A DNA stretch of 64,000 bases from Candidatus Krumholzibacteriia bacterium (GTDB lineage: Bacteria > Krumholzibacteriota > Krumholzibacteriia > Krumholzibacteriales > Krumholzibacteriaceae). This document shows, piece by piece, positions 2,040 to 15,872 of the stretch. The notes beneath the pieces were generated by a model, which was not told the origin of the DNA, searched no databases, and was given only the letters and a program-made list of their open reading frames with translations. Location of the stretch: the NCBI GenBank assembly GCA_963836185.1, contig CAWIIQ010000001.1:64001-128000 (forward strand), given 5' to 3'. A program made the position numbers and the translations under genes. Positions within the stretch are counted from its first letter, which is position 1; every line of letters begins with the position of its first letter.

Positions 2040-3467
2040 ATGTCACTGCAGGTCTACAACAGGTACAAGGGTAGAAAAGAGGAGTTCCAGCCGGTCGAAG
2101 AGGGAAAGGTCGGGATCTATTTCTGCGGGATGACGGTCCAGGACAAGCCGCACATGGGGCATATGCTCGCCTTTGTCGCCGGCGACATGATAAGGCGCTA
2201 CCTGAAGTTCAGGGGGTACGATGTCAAGTATGTGCAGAATTTCACCGATGTAGACGACAAGATCATATCGAAGGCGAATGACGAGGGCATCGAGTTCACG
2301 GAAGTCGCCCAGAGAAATATAGACGAGTACTTCAGATTCGCCGGCGATCTCAATATCATGCCGGCGGACATCTATCCGAAGGCCACTGAACATATCGACG
2401 ATATAATCGGCCTGATAAAGAGACTCGAGGAGGAAGGGTTCGCCTACAAGGGCGGCAGCGACGTTTATTACCGTGTCAGGAAGTTCCCCGCATACGGGAA
2501 GCTCTCAGGCAGGATCATAGATGACCTGCAGTCCGGAGCTAGGATCGAAGTCGGTGATGAGAAAGAGGACCCCCTCGACTTTACTCTCTGGAAGGGAGCC
2601 AAGGAAGGGGAGCCGGCGTGGGATTCCCCCTGGGGGCCGGGTCGTCCGGGGTGGCATATCGAGTGCTCGGTGATGTCGATGAAGTATCTTGGAAACACAC
2701 TCGACATGCACGGCGGCGGGATGGACCTCGTCTTTCCGCATCACGAGAACGAGATCGCGCAGAGCGAGGCCGCCACGGGCAGCGAGTACGTGAAATATTG
2801 GATGCACAACGGCCTGCTCAACCTCAGCGGCGAGAAGATGTCGAAATCGACGGGGCATTTCTTCCTTATCGAGGACATACTGAAGGAGTTCTCCGGAGAA
2901 GTGGTAAGGTTCTACTTCCTTTCGACTCATTTCAGGAGCAACAGCGAGTTCGGGCGTGAACGGCTCGCGGAAGCTGCTGCCGGGTTCGAACGCATCCGCG
3001 AGTTCTGCACGAGGCTCGATGAGGCTCGCACGGCCTCGGAGGGCGGAGTTGGCTGGGACGACAGGATTAACGACCTTGTCAGCAAGGTCCGCGAGGATTT
3101 CATGGCCTCGATGGATGACGATTTCAACAGTGCCGAAGCGATAGGCCGCATATTCCATCTTATCCGGGAAGTTAATGTCATAACAGGCGGCGACATCGCG
3201 AAGCTCGCCGCATTTCCGGAATCGCTCGAGAAAATGCTCGGCGATTTCGAGACGTATGACTCGATCCTCGGACTCTTCGCCGAAGGCCTTCCAGGGGCAG
3301 GCACAGATATCCCCGATGAGGTCGTTCAGATGGTCAGGGACAGGGAAGAGGCGAGGAAATCGAAAGACTGGGCGAGGGCCGACGAGTTGCGGGACGCGGT
3401 CCTGGCGGCCGGCTTTACGATAGAGGACAGGGCTGAGGGGACGAGGATCAGTCGCTCGAAGAGTTGA
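2040..3467 (+). CDS. cysS: Cysteine--tRNA ligase
   Basis: CGMTV..HMGH (HIGH), GRPGWHIECS, FPHHENE, KMSKS. Confidence 0.97.
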   Translation: MSLQVYNRYKGRKEEFQPVEEGKVGIYFCGMTVQDKPHMGHMLAFVAGDMIRRYLKFRGYDVKYVQNFTDVDDKIISKANDEGIEFTEVAQRNIDEYFRFAGDLNIMPADIYPKATEHIDDIIGLIKRLEEEGFAYKGGSDVYYRVRKFPAYGKLSGRIIDDLQSGARIEVGDEKEDPLDFTLWKGAKEGEPAWDSPWGPGRPGWHIECSVMSMKYLGNTLDMHGGGMDLVFPHHENEIAQSEAATGSEYVKYWMHNGLLNLSGEKMSKSTGHFFLIEDILKEFSGEVVRFYFLSTHFRSNSEFGRERLAEAAAGFERIREFCTRLDEARTASEGGVGWDDRINDLVSKVREDFMASMDDDFNSAEAIGRIFHLIREVNVITGGDIAKLAAFPESLEKMLGDFETYDSILGLFAEGLPGAGTDIPDEVVQMVRDREEARKSKDWARADELRDAVLAAGFTIEDRAEGTRISRSKS

Positions 3468-3906
3468 CGGGCATCAGGTCGCCCTTGGGCATCAACAGGA
3501 CCCAGAGCAGGATCGGAAGGAAAAAGTTGACCGTGAGGTTGAGGAACTCCGTTCCGGTCCAGAGCTGCTCGTTTCTCGTGAAAGCGCTCAGGAAAATGAA
3601 AAAGACGGTGATGATGTTGGCCGCCGTCAGTATGAGCACTCCGATCAGCGCCGGCCTGATCCTTTCCTTCCAGGCGACTCCATTTACCGCGATGACCAGC
3701 GAGAGATAGACTATCGGGTTCAGAGAGATCTCCTCGGTGACCTTGAGAGCGTTCTCCACGACAAGTGAGTTTCCGGTGAGGGCGACGAGCGGCTTCGCTC
3801 CGTACGCCACGACCAGGGTATAGTATCTCCCCGTGAACATCCAGGCGGTATAGAGCACAAGCGAGACGACGATAAACCGGACGAAGAAGATGAGGATCCT
3901 CTTCAT
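3448..3906 (-). CDS. Exosortase-associated multi-pass membrane protein (degenerate exosortase-like); alternative start 3936
   Basis: About 4 hydrophobic helices; segment WKERIRPALIGVLILTAANII parallels the neighbouring exosortase (IKEKVIGLLIGIPAIHLLNLIR) but no Cys/Arg/His triad. Confidence 0.65.
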   Translation of the reverse strand: MKRILIFFVRFIVVSLVLYTAWMFTGRYYTLVVAYGAKPLVALTGNSLVVENALKVTEEISLNPIVYLSLVIAVNGVAWKERIRPALIGVLILTAANIITVFFIFLSAFTRNEQLWTGTEFLNLTVNFFLPILLWVLLMPKGDLMPVNSSSD

Positions 3907-3942
3907 GTCGGGCCTTCTTTCTCCCGCATCAGCCATATCCGC

Positions 3943-4530
3943 CTATCCTGCCTTTCTCGGCTTGACGATCTTTGCCATCCAGAATATCACAAGCAGGAGC
4001 ATGAAGATGACGAAAATGACCTGCCAGAAGTATCCGTGGAAGAACCCGAACAGCTCTCTCTTGTGAAAAAGGACGAGAGAGACGACGACCATCCGGATCA
4101 GGTTGAGCAGATGGATGGCGGGGATCCCGATCAGCAGCCCGATCACCTTCTCCTTGATGCTTGCGGGGTATGCCCCGATGATCGAGAAATAGATCATCTT
4201 GGTATAGATGCCCGTGCATTCTGTGATGACGATGAGTCTCTCTCCGCCATGATCCGTATGGAATGTGAAAATGTTGCCGATGCGGGTAAACCAGTAGTTC
4301 AGTCTGTCGAGGACCCAGGCGAGCTCACTCGAAACGAGAAGCTGCATCGAGCCAGGTTCATGCGGATCATTCATCCCGTGAAGAAATCCGGGGATCCTTT
4401 TCGTCATTAAATAGGAAAAAAGCCAGAGGGCAAAGAAGAGAATCAGGAATACGATAAAATCCCTGCGGAAGGATCTTGAAATCCTTCGCGCCTCTCCCGT
4501 TTGACCTTCTGGCTTCTTTCCGTGGCCCAA
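3943..4530 (-). CDS. Exosortase/archaeosortase family protein (exosortase H-like)
   Basis: Triad motifs ITECTG (Cys), LLNLIR (Arg), FFHGYFWQ (His) in a multi-TM protein; directly downstream of a gene with a CTERM-type tail. Confidence 0.88.
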   Translation of the reverse strand: MGHGKKPEGQTGEARRISRSFRRDFIVFLILFFALWLFSYLMTKRIPGFLHGMNDPHEPGSMQLLVSSELAWVLDRLNYWFTRIGNIFTFHTDHGGERLIVITECTGIYTKMIYFSIIGAYPASIKEKVIGLLIGIPAIHLLNLIRMVVVSLVLFHKRELFGFFHGYFWQVIFVIFMLLLVIFWMAKIVKPRKAG

Positions 4531-4575
4531 CCGTTACTCTTTCAATACCTCACGATATAATCGGCAATTCGGTTC

Positions 4576-5526
4576 CTAGGCCTTGCTTACAGCGTGCCTC
4601 TTCATAATGACGGCGGCAGCGAGGATCATGGCAAGAACCAGGATCGTCACGACCGGAGCAGTGAAGAGAGGTACGGGGACAGGCTCGACTACGTGGATCG
4701 CCTGAACGCAGGTATCGTATACGGTGCCGGTGGCGGCATCCCATGCGATGATCGTCAGGGTGTCGTAATCGCAGACTGCGGCAGCGCCAGCATTGACGAT
4801 ACCATAAACGTCCCCACATGTTCCACCAACGACGCCTACGATCGTCTCAGACACTGCAAGCGCGGGGCCTACAACGCCGAGGCTCGTGATCGTGTAGTCA
4901 TAGTCGGTCGGCGGAGCACAAGGATCACCATTGCAGATCGCGAACGGGATGTAACCGGCGGTCACGCCCTGCTCGATGAAGTACAGGGTGTCCTGAAGGA
5001 TGGACAGTGCCGGAGGTGACTCCACGATCTCGATCGTCATGGTGTCGATCCAGTGGCGAAGTGTGCCACTGTAGTAACTGTCCTCACAGTCGCCACTGTC
5101 AGGCTGGCAAATGAGGTCGGTATCGCTGAAGCACTGGATCGCGATGACCATGTTGGTCGTACCGACGGTGACCGAGCAGGGAACCGTGATACAGGTCTCG
5201 TCCGGCCAGTAGTTGCCAGCGCCAAGCGTGAACGGACCATATACGCCAAACTCTTCCTCTTCAGACCAGGGGTTCGTCATCGTCCAGCCGAGCTCATCGG
5301 AAAGGACTACGCAGAACGTATCCGGATTGGGGCAGATCGAACCGGCGAGGAAGCCAAAGTTCGTAGGAGCAAGACCGAAGCATGCGGTCTCGCCAGCGAT
5401 CATTGTGGCGTCGCCACCGAATCCGTAAAAGAATCCGGGGTCGCCATCTTTGACCACGATGGCTGAGTTGGCAGCGACAGGAAGCAGCATCGTTATGGCA
5501 AGCGCCATGATTGCGAGCTTCTTCAT
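4576..5526 (-). CDS. Secreted Cys-rich acidic surface protein with exosortase-type C-terminal sorting signal
   Basis: Signal peptide MKKLAIMALAITMLLPVAANSA after GGAGG RBS; C-terminus VEPVPVPLFTAP + hydrophobic helix + KRHAVSKA. Confidence 0.85.
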   Translation of the reverse strand: MKKLAIMALAITMLLPVAANSAIVVKDGDPGFFYGFGGDATMIAGETACFGLAPTNFGFLAGSICPNPDTFCVVLSDELGWTMTNPWSEEEEFGVYGPFTLGAGNYWPDETCITVPCSVTVGTTNMVIAIQCFSDTDLICQPDSGDCEDSYYSGTLRHWIDTMTIEIVESPPALSILQDTLYFIEQGVTAGYIPFAICNGDPCAPPTDYDYTITSLGVVGPALAVSETIVGVVGGTCGDVYGIVNAGAAAVCDYDTLTIIAWDAATGTVYDTCVQAIHVVEPVPVPLFTAPVVTILVLAMILAAAVIMKRHAVSKA

Positions 5527-5871
5527 TTTCGAAACCTCCAAGTTGAACAGTGAAGAAGTCATCCCTTTCGGGAATGTCGTCTTCGGATTAACAGACTTGA
5601 TTGGCCTGTCGGTGGTTTCTGCGGATTTGAAACAACCCGCGACCGGCCGCCAGGGTCAGAGCGTTATAGGTGCCCGTTGATTTACTGTCTGTTCTATCCT
5701 CCTTATCGGGTCAGCCCCTCTCGGGCATCGCGGTGAAACCGGGAAACGCACGTAAAGACATGACCGCCCCTACGCTCGATTCGATGGGTTTCCTTCCCGT
5801 TCAAAATTTCCCTACCGTACTGCTTCGTGAAGTATGCGGCAGGCCCTGGGCCTGAAGCGTACCTACCGACA
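5527..5871 (-). promoter_or_regulatory. Long structured 5' untranslated leader of the surface-protein gene
   Basis: No convincing ORF between predicted promoter and ATG; long-range pairing 5861-5871 with 5607-5616 plus nested hairpins. Confidence 0.5.
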
Positions 5872-5876
5872 CTCAT

Positions 5877-5906
5877 ATATTACCACGGTCCTGCCGGATC
5901 CGTCAA
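5877..5906 (-). promoter_or_regulatory. Sigma70-type promoter for the sortase locus
   Basis: Minus strand TTGACG-N18-TAATAT with TG extended -10. Confidence 0.6.
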
Positions 5907-7070: not shown

Positions 7071-8265
7071 ATGGCCAAGGAGAAGTTTGAACGCAACAAG
7101 CCCCACGTAAACGTGGGAACGATCGGGCATGTCGATCATGGCAAGACCACGCTGACGGCAGCGATAACGAAGCATCTCTCCTCGAAGGGCATGGCGAACT
7201 TCGTGCCGTTCGACGAGATCGACAAGGCTCCCGAAGAGCGCGAGCGCGGGATCACGATCGCGACGGCTCACGTGGAGTACGAGACGGAGAACAGGCACTA
7301 CGCACACGTAGACTGCCCGGGACACGCCGATTACATCAAGAACATGATCACGGGCGCCGCGCAGATGGACGGCGGCATCGTGGTGGTATCGGCCGCAGAC
7401 GGTCCGATGCCTCAGACGAGGGAGCACATCCTCCTGGCTCGCCAGGTGAACGTGCCCTACCTGGTGATCTACATGAACAAGGTTGATCATGGTAGACGAC
7501 CCCGAGCTACTCGACCTGGTCGAGCTCGAGGTCAGGGAGCTACTGAGCGAGTACGATTTCCCCGGCGACGACATTCCGATCATCCGCGGGAGCGCTCTTC
7601 AGGCTCTGAACAGCGAAGACGCGGACAGCGAGGAAGTCAAGAGCATCTGGGAGCTGATGGACGCGATCGACAGTTACATACCGACGCCCGAGCGTGACAC
7701 GGACAAGCCGTTCCTGATGCCTATCGAGGACGTGTTCTCGATCACGGGGCGCGGCACGGTAGGTACCGGGCGTATCGAGCGCGGGATCGTCAAGGTGGGA
7801 GAGGCAGTAGAGGTGATCGGGATCAGGGACACGCAGAAGACCGTAGTGACCGGAGTCGAGATGTTCCGCAAGCTTCTCGACGAGGGTATGGCGGGCGACA
7901 ACGTGGGCCTGCTTCTTCGCGGGATGGACAAGGACAAGCTCGACCGCGGGATGGTCGTGGCGAAGCCCGGGTCGATCACACCTCACCTGAAGTTCAGGGG
8001 CAAGGTGTACGTGTTGAAGAAAGAGGAGGGCGGGCGACACACCCCGTTCTTCAACGGATATCGTCCGCAGTTCTATTTCAGGACGACGGATGTGACGGGA
8101 GTGGCGACGCTTCCCGAAGGGACCGAGATGGTAATGCCCGGCGATGATGTGGAGCTGTACATCGAGCTCATCACGCCGATAGCTATGGAGAAGGAACTTC
8201 GGTTTGCGATCCGTGAGGGCGGCAGGACCGTCGGTGCGGGTGTCGTGACCGAAATCGTAGAATAG
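7071..8265 (+). CDS. tuf: Elongation factor Tu, copy 1 (apparent +1 frameshift at 7490, likely sequence error)
   Basis: GHVDHGKTT; nearly identical to 23401-24594 except an extra T at 7490 and codons 2-3. Confidence 0.95.
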
Positions 8266-8752: not shown

Positions 8753-9637
8753 ATGAACGAGGATACGACTAAAAACGAGGGGACCGAAAAGTCCCCCGAT
8801 GAAGTAATCATCTCTTCAGAAGAGCCGGAAACGGTCGCTGAAGAGGCGGGCGCCGTCATGCCTGAAGAGCTTTTCGATGAAGAGATGCTCGACAGCGAGG
8901 ACGACGATACCCCGCAGGAGGAATCGACGGAGGCTCCCGAAACCGAGGAGATCGCTTCCAACTCCGAGGAAGAGGCGGAGCCCGTTGACAAGGGGGAGGA
9001 ACCGGACGCGGAAACGGCCGGAGATACCCCCGAACCCGGAGAAACCCCGCAGGCTGAAGAAGCAGTGGCGGAGGGTGGCACCGATGTGGACGGTGCCGGT
9101 ATCGGTGCGAAAAAAATGCGCTGGTACGTCCTTCACACTTACTCCGGCCGGGAGGCAAAGGTCCGGGATACGATCGAGCGCCTGATCAGGGCTTCCGATA
9201 TGGAAGACCGGTTCGGCAAGGTTCTCGTAGCCACCGAAGAAGTGGCTGAGATGAAGAAGGGCAAGAAGACCGTTTCGAAGCGGAAGCTTTTTCCCAGCTA
9301 CATACTCATCGAGATGGAGATGACGAACGAGACGTGGAGTCTCATCGAAAACGTCCCCGGCGTAACACATTTCGTCGGCGGGGGCACGAAGCCTTTTCCC
9401 ATTCCGAAGAAGGAAGTCGACAGGATCCTTGGCCGGATGGAGAAGAAAGAGGGGATCATCCCCGAGGTCCCGTTCACGATCGGCGAACACGTCAGCGTGG
9501 TCGACGGACCCTTCTCCGAGTTTACCGGCATAGTCGACGAGATAAATCCGGAAAGGGGAAAGCTCAAGGTCCTCGTAAGCATTTTCGGGAGAGAGACCCC
9601 GGTCGAGCTCGACTTCCTTCAGGTCAAACCTCTATAG
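8753..9637 (+). CDS. nusG: Transcription factor NusG with ~120-aa acidic N-terminal extension
   Basis: [23 protein letters not shown] motif [16 protein letters not shown]. Confidence 0.95.
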
Positions 9638-11460: not shown

Positions 11461-12030
11461 ATGGCAATGCCCGCCAAGAAAGATGACGAAAAGAAAACTG
11501 CCGAGGCCGTAGAAGAGAAGGCCGAGGAGAAGGCTGAGAAGCCCAAGAAGAAAGCAGAGAAGAAGGCCGAAGAGAAGCCCGTAGAAGAGGCTCCGGCCGA
11601 GAAAAAGGCTGAAGAGCCGAAAGCCGAGGAGAAAAAAGTGGAGGCCAGCTCCAAGAATGTAGAGAAGATAGTCGAGGCAGTCGAGAAGATGACGGTACTC
11701 GAGCTTTCCGAGCTCGTAAAGGTCCTCGAGGACAGGTTCGGCGTAACCGCAGCCGCTCCGATGGCAATGATGCCCGGTATGATGATGGGCGGGGGCGCAG
11801 TTGAAGAGGCCGAGGAAAAGACCGAGTTCGACGTTGTCCTCACGGACTTCGGCAGCCAGAAGATCCAGGTCATCAAGGTCGTCAGGGCCATTACCGGCCT
11901 CGGACTGATCGAGGCGAAGAAAGTGGTCGAGGAGGTTCCTGGAACAGTCAAGGAAGGCGTCAACAAGGACGAAGCCGAAGAGATCAAGAAGCAGCTTGAA
12001 GAGGTCGGCGCGACAGTAGAAGTAAAGTAA
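11461..12030 (+). CDS. rplL: 50S ribosomal protein L7/L12 with Lys/Glu/Ala-rich N-terminal extension (alternative GTG start 11638)
   Basis: [34 protein letters not shown]. Confidence 0.93.

Positions 12031-12081: not shown

Positions 12082-15872
<3,791 letters not shown>

What the first reader, a model, noticed from the sequence alone, without database searches (positions are those of the whole stretch)
3448..5526. Dedicated exosortase system with an unusual 'VPVPLF' C-terminal sorting signal
Seen: three co-oriented genes in the order substrate, exosortase, membrane partner. The substrate ends VEPVPVPLFTAP-VVTILVLAMILAAAVIM-KRHAVSKA (motif, TM helix, basic tail) and the next gene has the Cys/Arg/His exosortase triad. 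Established: this layout matches exosortase H/IPTL-CTERM loci. Inference: the tail lacks PEP, IPTL and the xxWG element, so it may define a new lineage-specific subclass (VPLF-CTERM) anchoring one major surface protein. It sits among core genes, which suggests a stable envelope function.
Basis: partly seen in the sequence, partly recalled or inferred. Interest (0 to 1): 0.85.

Follow-up and report, generated by a model that had tools for sequence, protein, structure and literature searches.

The report
Order-wide VPLF-tail exosortase anchoring system
One order of uncultured bacteria shares an uncatalogued variant of a known protein-anchoring system, in which a membrane protease likely cuts a conserved 'VPLF' tail off a few exported proteins, among them a probable surface-coat protein whose gene carries a long, likely structured RNA leader.

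Summary
The three genes, the tail and the Cys/Arg/His triad are real. The enzyme passes the exosortase signature but fails XrtH (68<86) and ArtB (66<150). The tail fails the IPTL-, VPXXXP-, PEP-, PEF-, VPLPA-, VPAMP- and PIP-CTERM models. It is conserved (VP[LV]F[TS]xP, 0 of 109 with WG) in 49 of 52 genomes of one Krumholzibacteria order and has no strong match in 150 other genomes of the phylum. So an uncatalogued subclass is supported, as an offshoot of the XrtH/IPTL-ArtB/VPXXXP group: orthologues reach 86 bits on XrtH, relatives with IPTL-type tails share the layout, and mid-protein copies occur. 'Dedicated' is wrong: genomes carry 1-5 tailed proteins (here also a papain-family protease), and one family lacks the adjacent substrate. 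Additions: the partner looks like a catalytically dead exosortase copy, sometimes fused to the enzyme. The substrate (two Ig-like domains, variable outer domain) has a conserved sigma-70 promoter and a ~340-nt covarying leader with no Rfam match, which fits an S-layer-type protein (inferred; precedent PMC8671808). Nothing is tested experimentally. Earlier notes of this scan cover only the midcut layout, on other DNA.

The parts
4576..5526 (-). Main substrate gene, 316 aa: signal peptide, two Cys-rich Ig-like beta-sandwich domains, VPLF sorting tail; candidate surface-coat (S-layer-type) protein
   Evidence: 354 homologues at E<=0.001; model pLDDT 93.5; no Pfam or NCBIfam family
5464..5526 (-). 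Sec-type signal peptide, residues 1-21 (basic start, hydrophobic core, small residues at the end, no lipobox Cys)
   Evidence: read by eye; the same pattern starts most homologues; no predictor was available
5023..5463 (-). N-terminal (outer) Ig-like domain, about residues 22-168; fast-diverging
   Evidence: median identity 31% over 14 loci
4684..5022 (-). C-terminal (anchor-proximal) Ig-like domain, about residues 169-281
   Evidence: Z 11.7, rmsd 2.4 A over 105 residues to a complement C4 macroglobulin-type domain, a generic fold; median identity 57%
4579..4674 (-). Tripartite sorting tail, residues 285-316: VPLFTAP motif, transmembrane helix 292-308, basic end KRH
   Evidence: (helix); median identity 81% for residues 281-316
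3943..4530 (-). Short exosortase, 195 aa; C105 (4216-4218), R146 (4093-4095), H165 (4036-4038)
   Evidence: TIGR04178 53.5>23, XrtH 68.1<86, ArtB 65.5<150; triad invariant in 57 of 57
3448..3936 (-). Membrane partner, 162 aa; likely a catalytically dead exosortase paralogue; its 3' end overlaps the 3' end of cysS (2040-3467, + strand) by 20 nt
   Evidence: NF041730 only 10.2<35
5527..5872 (-). Conserved ~340-nt 5' leader of the substrate gene, with a predicted multi-helix RNA structure; contains the GGAGG site at 5535-5539
   Evidence: no Rfam match at E<=1; RNA contigs reach 5862
5877..5906 (-). Sigma-70-type promoter with extended -10 (TTGACG, 18 nt, TG-n-TAATAT)
   Evidence: a matching site lies 291-354 nt before the start in 16 of 17 relatives

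Best explanation
This is an order-wide exosortase sorting system of Krumholzibacteria in which a short Cys/Arg/His membrane protease, probably paired with a dead copy of itself, likely cleaves a VPLF-type C-terminal tail and so anchors a small set of exported proteins, chiefly a probable abundant surface-coat protein. Shown: gene order, triad, tail conservation, co-distribution of tail and enzyme clade, several substrates per genome, tail on unrelated bodies, tail swapped for a FlgD/T9SS-like end in paralogues, natural enzyme-partner fusions, conserved promoter and covarying leader. Inferred steps: (1) the substrate mRNA is made from the sigma-70 promoter, and its structured leader stabilises or regulates it; (2) Sec export leaves the protein held in the inner membrane by the tail helix; (3) the enzyme-partner pair cuts at or near the VPLF motif and a lipid replaces the helix, by analogy with archaeosortase A; (4) the disulfide-rich two-domain protein reaches the cell surface by an unknown route across the outer membrane and forms a coat with its variable domain outward; (5) papain- and subtilisin-family proteases that carry the same tail, most of them with the same two-domain module, are displayed the same way. 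It works like XrtH/IPTL-CTERM but fails those models.
For: Enzyme clade (50-88% identity) in 43 of 50 other genomes of the order; only 21-36% matches in 13 of 150 genomes outside it. Tail in 49 of 52 order genomes. Outside the order, 6 of 150 genomes give weak hits of at most 19.8 bits, one of them an IPTL tail. In 44 of the 45 order genomes with an XrtH-like match there is exactly one. The only order genome with a true IPTL tail (G065) is the one with a second enzyme, which suggests separate specificities. G000's only other exosortase is an 8-TM-type gene beside an EpsI-like gene and a PEP-CTERM protein. The attributes of a sorting signal listed in bioRxiv 10.1101/2023.06.07.544157 (section 5) are met. 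The 14 order enzymes form one clade (SH-aLRT 96). Cleavage plus lipid attachment is shown for ArtA (passages). A 316-aa IPTL-CTERM protein is the proven S-layer of a diderm, and its C-terminal peptides were not detected (PMC8671808).
Against: No cleavage, lipidation, location or lattice was observed. The tree backbone is unresolved, so no sister group can be named, and the nearest representatives mostly score better on ArtB than on XrtH. The tail nearly always travels with the same domain, so part of its conservation is shared descent; the unrelated bodies are few (L043, L044, L057) and P0251 was not checked for the domain. Family f2 lacks the stand-alone substrate beside the enzyme, so a coat made of it is not universal. 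Partner-enzyme homology is weak by profile comparison (hhalign probability 5%, E 0.0075). The RNA contigs come from one study and were found with this gene. No homology to a known S-layer protein was found.
Confidence: 0.7

Rival explanations
1. It is ordinary exosortase H / IPTL-CTERM that has drifted below the model cut-offs in one lineage, with no distinct specificity; widening the existing models would absorb it.
For: Orthologues score 60-86 bits on XrtH, one at the cut-off. A divergent tail scores 19.5 of 20.5 on IPTL. Caldisericota and other relatives with IPTL-like xxWG tails show the same substrate-enzyme-partner layout. Mid-protein copies weakly match midcut-by-XrtH (14.4 and 17.5 of 45).
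Against: 0 of 109 tails have IPT[LV] or WG at positions 7-8. IPTL tails in the loci score at most 15 bits on the VPLF profile, against 25 or more for the tails counted. G065 keeps both tail types, with two enzymes that sit apart in the tree.
Confidence: 0.2
2. The tail is simply a conserved, uncleaved membrane anchor of one protein family, and the neighbouring exosortase serves some other substrate.
For: Most tails sit on the same domain. In family f2 the enzyme has no adjacent substrate.
Against: The tail is far more conserved (81%) than its own protein body (31% and 57%) or CysS (64%). It occurs on unrelated bodies. A scan of G000 found no other candidate tail apart from the PEP-CTERM protein. 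f2 genomes still carry tailed proteins elsewhere (7 of 8).
Confidence: 0.05
3. The sorting system is as described, but the main substrate is not a coat protein: it is a periplasmic or surface spacer, adhesin or binding module that stays on the inner membrane.
For: Generic Ig-like folds, with RbmA, macroglobulin-type and CARDB domains among the matches. The same module is used as a stalk under proteases and before FlgD-type ends. The genome is diderm (BamA) and no outer-membrane export route was identified.
Against: Conserved strong promoter and long leader only on the stand-alone copy; fast-diverging outer domain; RNA contigs cover the whole gene; IPTL-type S-layer precedent.
Confidence: 0.35

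Closest known systems
Exosortase H / IPTL-CTERM (TIGR04177, TIGR04174, PF18203) with XrtH-associated membrane protein (NF041730)
   Same: Short enzyme with Cys/Arg/His; substrate-enzyme-partner layout; few substrates per genome; motif shape [IV]-P-x-hydrophobic-[ST]; mid-protein copies followed by a second signal-like helix; XrtH is the best named model for this enzyme (68.1 bits).
   Different: Below all cut-offs (68.1<86, partner 10.2<35, tail no match); position 3 is hydrophobic instead of Thr, and xP replaces xxWG (0 of 109 with WG); confined to one order and fixed beside cysS.
Archaeosortase B / VPXXXP-CTERM (TIGR04144, TIGR04143)
   Same: Near-equal enzyme score (65.5); V-P start with a later Pro; 17 of 109 tails literally fit xPxxxP; JGI labels many homologues 'archaeosortase B'.
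   Different: Far below the cut-off of 150; no TIGR04143 match at these tails in 5 genomes; most tails are xPxxxxP (86 of 109); bacterial host; the one true ArtB in the tree (P0326) does not group with this clade.
midcut-by-XrtH proteins (NF033207)
   Same: Three relatives (L053, L060, L061) carry the tail at about residue 310-355, followed by a second signal-like helix and a body of about 1000 residues.
   Different: Scores 14.4 and 17.5 against a cut-off of 45, and none for the third; the two complete ones end in a T9SS-A/FlgD-like domain. Not found in G000.
Methylomirabilis lanthanidiphila S-layer protein mela_00855 (PMC8671808)
   Same: 316 aa, signal peptide, exosortase-type C-terminal tail, highly transcribed, diderm host; C-terminal peptides not detected in the purified layer (passages and Discussion part 1 read).
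   Different: True IPTL-CTERM tail.
PEP-CTERM / exosortase A (EpsH-EpsI)
   Same: Same protease superfamily and tripartite tail.
   Different: G000 has its own separate PEP-CTERM system at C1:243-245 kb; the window's enzyme scores 15.4 on TIGR02602 (cut-off 105.55).

Membership tests
Exosortase/archaeosortase superfamily | Signature model TIGR04178 above 23 bits | tested here: met
   53.5 bits
Exosortase/archaeosortase superfamily | Invariant Cys, Arg, His | tested here: met
   C105, R146, H165 in 57 of 57
Exosortase/archaeosortase superfamily | Cleavage of the tail and attachment of a lipid | not testable with these tools
   shown only for ArtA (passages)
Tripartite C-terminal sorting signal (Haft attributes 1-8) | C-terminal motif, helix and basic cluster; several per genome; signal peptide; on unrelated bodies; homologues with another ending | tested here: met
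   attributes; V 103, P 107, F 99 of 109; C1A-only and CARDB bodies; L054 paralogues end in a FlgD/T9SS-like domain; signal peptides read by eye
Dedicated (one-to-one) sorting system | One target per enzyme, adjacent gene | tested here: not met
   2 targets in G000, 1-5 per genome; no adjacent target in family f2
Exosortase H | TIGR04177 at or above 86 bits | tested here: not met
   68.1; 1 of 45 matching order genomes reaches the cut-off
IPTL-CTERM | TIGR04174 >= 20.5 or PF18203 >= 20.8 | tested here: not met
   no match at the tail in G000, while controls G112, G028, G194 and G065 pass; 1 of 52 order genomes passes, on a different protein
IPTL-CTERM | IPTL motif with WG at positions 7-8 (label 'IPTLxxWG' seen; the defining paper was not held) | tested here: not met
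   0 of 109 for each
Exosortase H system | Adjacent associated membrane protein, NF041730 >= 35 | tested here: not met
   a membrane gene is adjacent in 40 of 40 loci but scores 10.2
Archaeosortase B / VPXXXP-CTERM | TIGR04144 >= 150 and TIGR04143 >= 30 | tested here: not met
   65.5; 0 of 5 genomes over the tail cut-off, with no positive control genome available
PEP-, PEF-, VPLPA-, VPAMP-, PIP-CTERM | Tail above each model's cut-off | tested here: not met
   (best 20.3<23, on a paralogue tail in G036); only the PEP and PIP searches had a positive hit elsewhere
midcut-by-XrtH | NF033207 >= 45 | tested here: not met
   14.4 and 17.5 in two of three mid-tail relatives
S-layer protein | Forms a paracrystalline surface lattice; among the most abundant proteins | not testable with these tools
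   only indirect signs
Any Rfam RNA family (for the leader) | Match to an Rfam 15 model | tested here: not met
   none at E<=1 in the window or over the leaders of 3 relatives

The most novel reading that the evidence does not exclude
The 316-aa protein is the S-layer subunit of this uncultured order, lipid-anchored by a pseudo-symmetric exosortase made of one active and one dead subunit. Accessory proteases keep a lineage-matched copy of the lattice module so that they co-assemble into their own cell's coat, and the ~340-nt leader is a new regulatory RNA that can pair with the ribosome-binding site. The active-plus-dead architecture would then hold for short exosortases of the XrtH/ArtB group in general.
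Probability: 0.25. Interest if true: 0.68.

Novelty: new variant of a known kind. Interest (0 to 1): 0.42.

Why it matters
It supplies a clean new sorting-signal and enzyme pair that marks a whole uncultured order and is now unnamed or mislabelled ('archaeosortase B'). It names the best candidate for that order's surface coat. It offers two general leads: the 'associated membrane protein' of short exosortases looks like a dead paralogue that can be fused to the enzyme, which matters for reconstituting these never-assayed enzymes, and one genome carries both IPTL and VPLF systems, a natural pair for testing what decides tail specificity. The covarying leader is a candidate new RNA motif. A specialist would welcome these, but exosortase subclasses with their own tail flavour are expected.

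Tried and rejected
Known tail models: none fits. The hmmscan of short tails is insensitive: a clear IPTL-like tail of G065 missed TIGR04174, so the genome searches with controls carry the claim. The Pfam scan gave no family for the enzyme although precomputed PF09721 hits exist for it, so blanks from that copy are weak. 'VPVPLF' as the motif: rejected. 'Dedicated': rejected. A sister group for the enzyme: unresolved (quick tree, 120 of 135 rows kept after a length filter). Atlas searches gave leads only: Ig-like archaeal surface proteins at 0.86; for the partner, unnamed clusters at 0.92-0.93 and exosortase or XrtH_assoc clusters at 0.84 and 0.81. Fold searches show only generic beta-sandwiches. 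The leader folded alone is not more stable than shuffles (z -1.38), so the case rests on covariation. In the four RNA runs no contig covered the enzyme, partner or most of cysS; contigs cannot rank expression, so this is not used. Recent gene conversion between the two G000 copies: not shown (85% DNA identity, longest exact run 47 nt). No terminator was found between substrate and enzyme. Literature: no held paper has exosortase with IPTL-CTERM or with Krumholzibacter; searches found nothing on this system. Haft 2012, which defines these subclasses, is not held, so its definitions are recalled or taken from model names. That long structured leaders are typical of S-layer mRNAs is recalled; searches did not confirm it.
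Full report
Observation. The middle protein passes the exosortase/archaeosortase signature (53.5>23) but no named subfamily: XrtH 68.1<86, ArtB 65.5<150. C105, R146 and H165 are invariant in 57 of 57 homologues. Names on close homologues point to Candidatus Krumholzibacteria. The genome has BamA, so it has an outer membrane.

The tail against known signals. IPTL-CTERM (TIGR04174, PF18203) gives no match at the tail, while four genomes of the same class pass in the same searches. VPXXXP, PEF, VPLPA, VPAMP and PIP models stay below cut-off in five genomes each, and PEP-CTERM hits only a different gene. Among 109 distinct tails that score 25 bits or more on my own profile (2 cut rows dropped), V1 is present in 103, P2 in 107 and F4 in 99; VPLF in 81, xPxxxxP in 86, xPxxxP in 17, IPT[LV] in 0 and WG at 7-8 in 0. 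The residues before VPLF vary. The set is defined by my profile, so these counts describe the family and do not test its boundary.

Distribution. The enzyme clade occurs in 43 of 50 other genomes of the order; 13 of 150 genomes outside it have only distant matches. The substrate domain occurs in 46 of 50 and in 0 of 150. The tail occurs in 49 of 52 order genomes, 1-5 copies each; outside the order, 6 of 150 genomes give weak hits, one being an IPTL tail. These genomes are kin, so this is one inherited system and not independent co-occurrence. Other phyla were not searched with the tail profile; the enzyme scan of all species genomes returned 40 order-like loci and 6 distant ones.

Not dedicated. 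G000 has a second tailed protein, a C1A peptidase with a lectin-like domain and the same module. Relatives put the tail on C1A proteins without the module (L043, L044), on a CARDB protein (L057) and on a subtilase-PKD protein (P0251). Two paralogues carry the module with a FlgD/T9SS-like end instead (L054). In family f2, enzyme and partner keep their place but no tailed gene precedes them in the loci with upstream DNA, while tailed proteins lie elsewhere. This meets the attributes of a many-to-one tripartite signal listed in bioRxiv 10.1101/2023.06.07.544157 (passages and section 5 read).

Relation to XrtH and ArtB. The 14 order enzymes form one clade (SH-aLRT 96) on an unresolved backbone where XrtH-passing proteins and the single true ArtB are intermixed. 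Orthologues score 60-86 bits on XrtH, 1 of 45 at the cut-off. IPTL passes in 1 of 52 order genomes, G065, which also has a second, unrelated short enzyme. One divergent tail of the VPLF family scores 19.5 of 20.5. Distant relatives with xxWG tails show the same three-gene layout (L132, L136, L137). Three relatives carry the tail in mid-chain before a second signal-like helix, as in midcut-by-XrtH, below its cut-off; earlier notes of this scan describe that layout in other genomes. So it works like XrtH/IPTL and probably descends from that group, but it is not a member by the curated tests.

The partner. It follows the enzyme in 40 of 40 loci. MAFFT lays 19 partner sequences on the enzyme domain: the enzyme's E104, N143 and W169 columns are kept (E 16, N 18, W 19 of 19), while the Cys column holds E or D, the Arg column mostly T, and the His column a gap. 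Profile comparison is weak (probability 5%, E 0.0075). The partner profile scores 10 bits or more on 8 of 106 single-domain exosortases and on 0 of 88 hydrophobic control ORFs. One order genome has the two genes fused, and 11 of 148 distant representatives carry a partner-like second half. The natural fusion folds with pLDDT 83.8 and pTM 0.79, with a similar helix series in both halves (19 sequences). I infer a dead paralogue that pairs with the enzyme; binding itself was not tested.

The main substrate. It has a Sec-type signal peptide (by eye), 13 Cys in an acidic body and, in a confident model (pLDDT 93.5), two beta-sandwiches plus the tail helix. Fold matches are generic Ig-like domains (best Z 11.7, rmsd 2.4 A, 105 residues; RbmA tops Foldseek at TM-score 0.26). 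Across 14 loci, median identity is 31% for the outer domain, 57% for the inner, 81% for the tail, 58% for the enzyme and 64% for CysS: a variable outside on a fixed anchor. In 7 of 16 genomes the stand-alone and protease-fused copies are sisters with strong support (one pair has a long branch); in the other 9 they group by gene type among close kin.

Promoter, leader and RNA. A sigma-70-type site with extended -10 lies at 5906-5877 (such sites arise by chance at this rate), and a matching site lies 291-354 nt before the start in 16 of 17 relatives. The leader aligns across 18 loci. On 10 of these (the less gapped group) RNAalifold predicts 53 pairs, 25 with changes on both sides; 0 of 500 shuffles reach any measure and slid controls give 4-9 such pairs. 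The structure was derived from the same alignment and the sequences are related, so this is strong but not final. There is no Rfam match. The leader is single-copy in G000 and, among the fetched loci, sits before the enzyme-adjacent substrate and weakly before one stand-alone paralogue. Contigs from four metatranscriptome runs of one study match 4598-5862 at about 99% identity, ending just short of the predicted start; they were found with this gene and cannot rank expression.

Mechanism. By analogy with ArtA, for which cleavage and lipid attachment are shown (passages), the enzyme likely removes the tail after Sec export and leaves a lipid anchor. The closest experimental precedent in a diderm is the 316-aa IPTL-CTERM S-layer protein of Methylomirabilis lanthanidiphila, whose C-terminal peptides were not detected (PMC8671808; passages and first part of the Discussion; supplement not opened). 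I put the sorting system with its own tail specificity at 0.7, drifted XrtH at 0.2 and an uncleaved anchor at 0.05. Separately, I put a coat role for the main substrate at about 0.5, against 0.35 for a spacer or adhesin role.

Verdict. Real, order-wide and uncatalogued in the libraries and papers searched (the defining 2012 paper was not held), but a new variant of a known kind. Interest 0.42, raised by the leader RNA and the dead-partner lead, and limited because subclasses with their own tail are expected and nothing is tested.

Noticed in passing
window 5527-5906 (- strand): Conserved promoter plus a ~340-nt leader with covarying helices and no Rfam match; single copy in G000; a conserved 5' CCUC could pair with the ribosome-binding site.
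   Followed up: yes
G000:C1:656616-658853 (L001:8616-10853): Second tailed protein: papain-family C1A peptidase, lectin-like domain, then an 88%-identical copy of the two-domain module and a VPVFS tail. In 7 of 16 genomes the two copies are each other's nearest relatives, which suggests repeated copying within lineages.
   Followed up: partly
L053, L060, L061: 1385-1408-aa proteins with the tail in mid-chain, a second signal-like helix and, in the two complete ones, a T9SS-A/FlgD-like end: one gene, probably two exported products.
   Followed up: partly
L034:154-1188; L046:4193-5287: Natural enzyme-partner fusions; 11 of 148 distant representatives also carry a partner-like second half.
   Followed up: yes
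G000:C1:243000-245200 (L004): Separate PEP-CTERM protein, 8-TM-type exosortase and EpsI-like gene, with frame breaks.
   Followed up: partly
window 7071-8265 and 12082-14242: tuf and rpoB are split across frames, probably long-read indel errors in this assembly; the three genes of the finding are intact and match homologues end to end.
   Followed up: no
G000 genome: 69 ORFs end in a FlgD/T9SS-like motif by my own recalled pattern, and there are 11 BamA/Omp85-family matches, 2 over the cut-off: a second, much larger C-terminal sorting route.
   Followed up: no
L092-L131: 14 of 40 short-read loci end inside the substrate gene, as expected of a repeated or strain-variable gene.
   Followed up: partly
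window 11461-12030 and 8753-9637: The rplL ORF has a Lys/Glu/Ala-rich N-terminal extension, and the nusG ORF a long acidic N-terminal extension.
   Followed up: no
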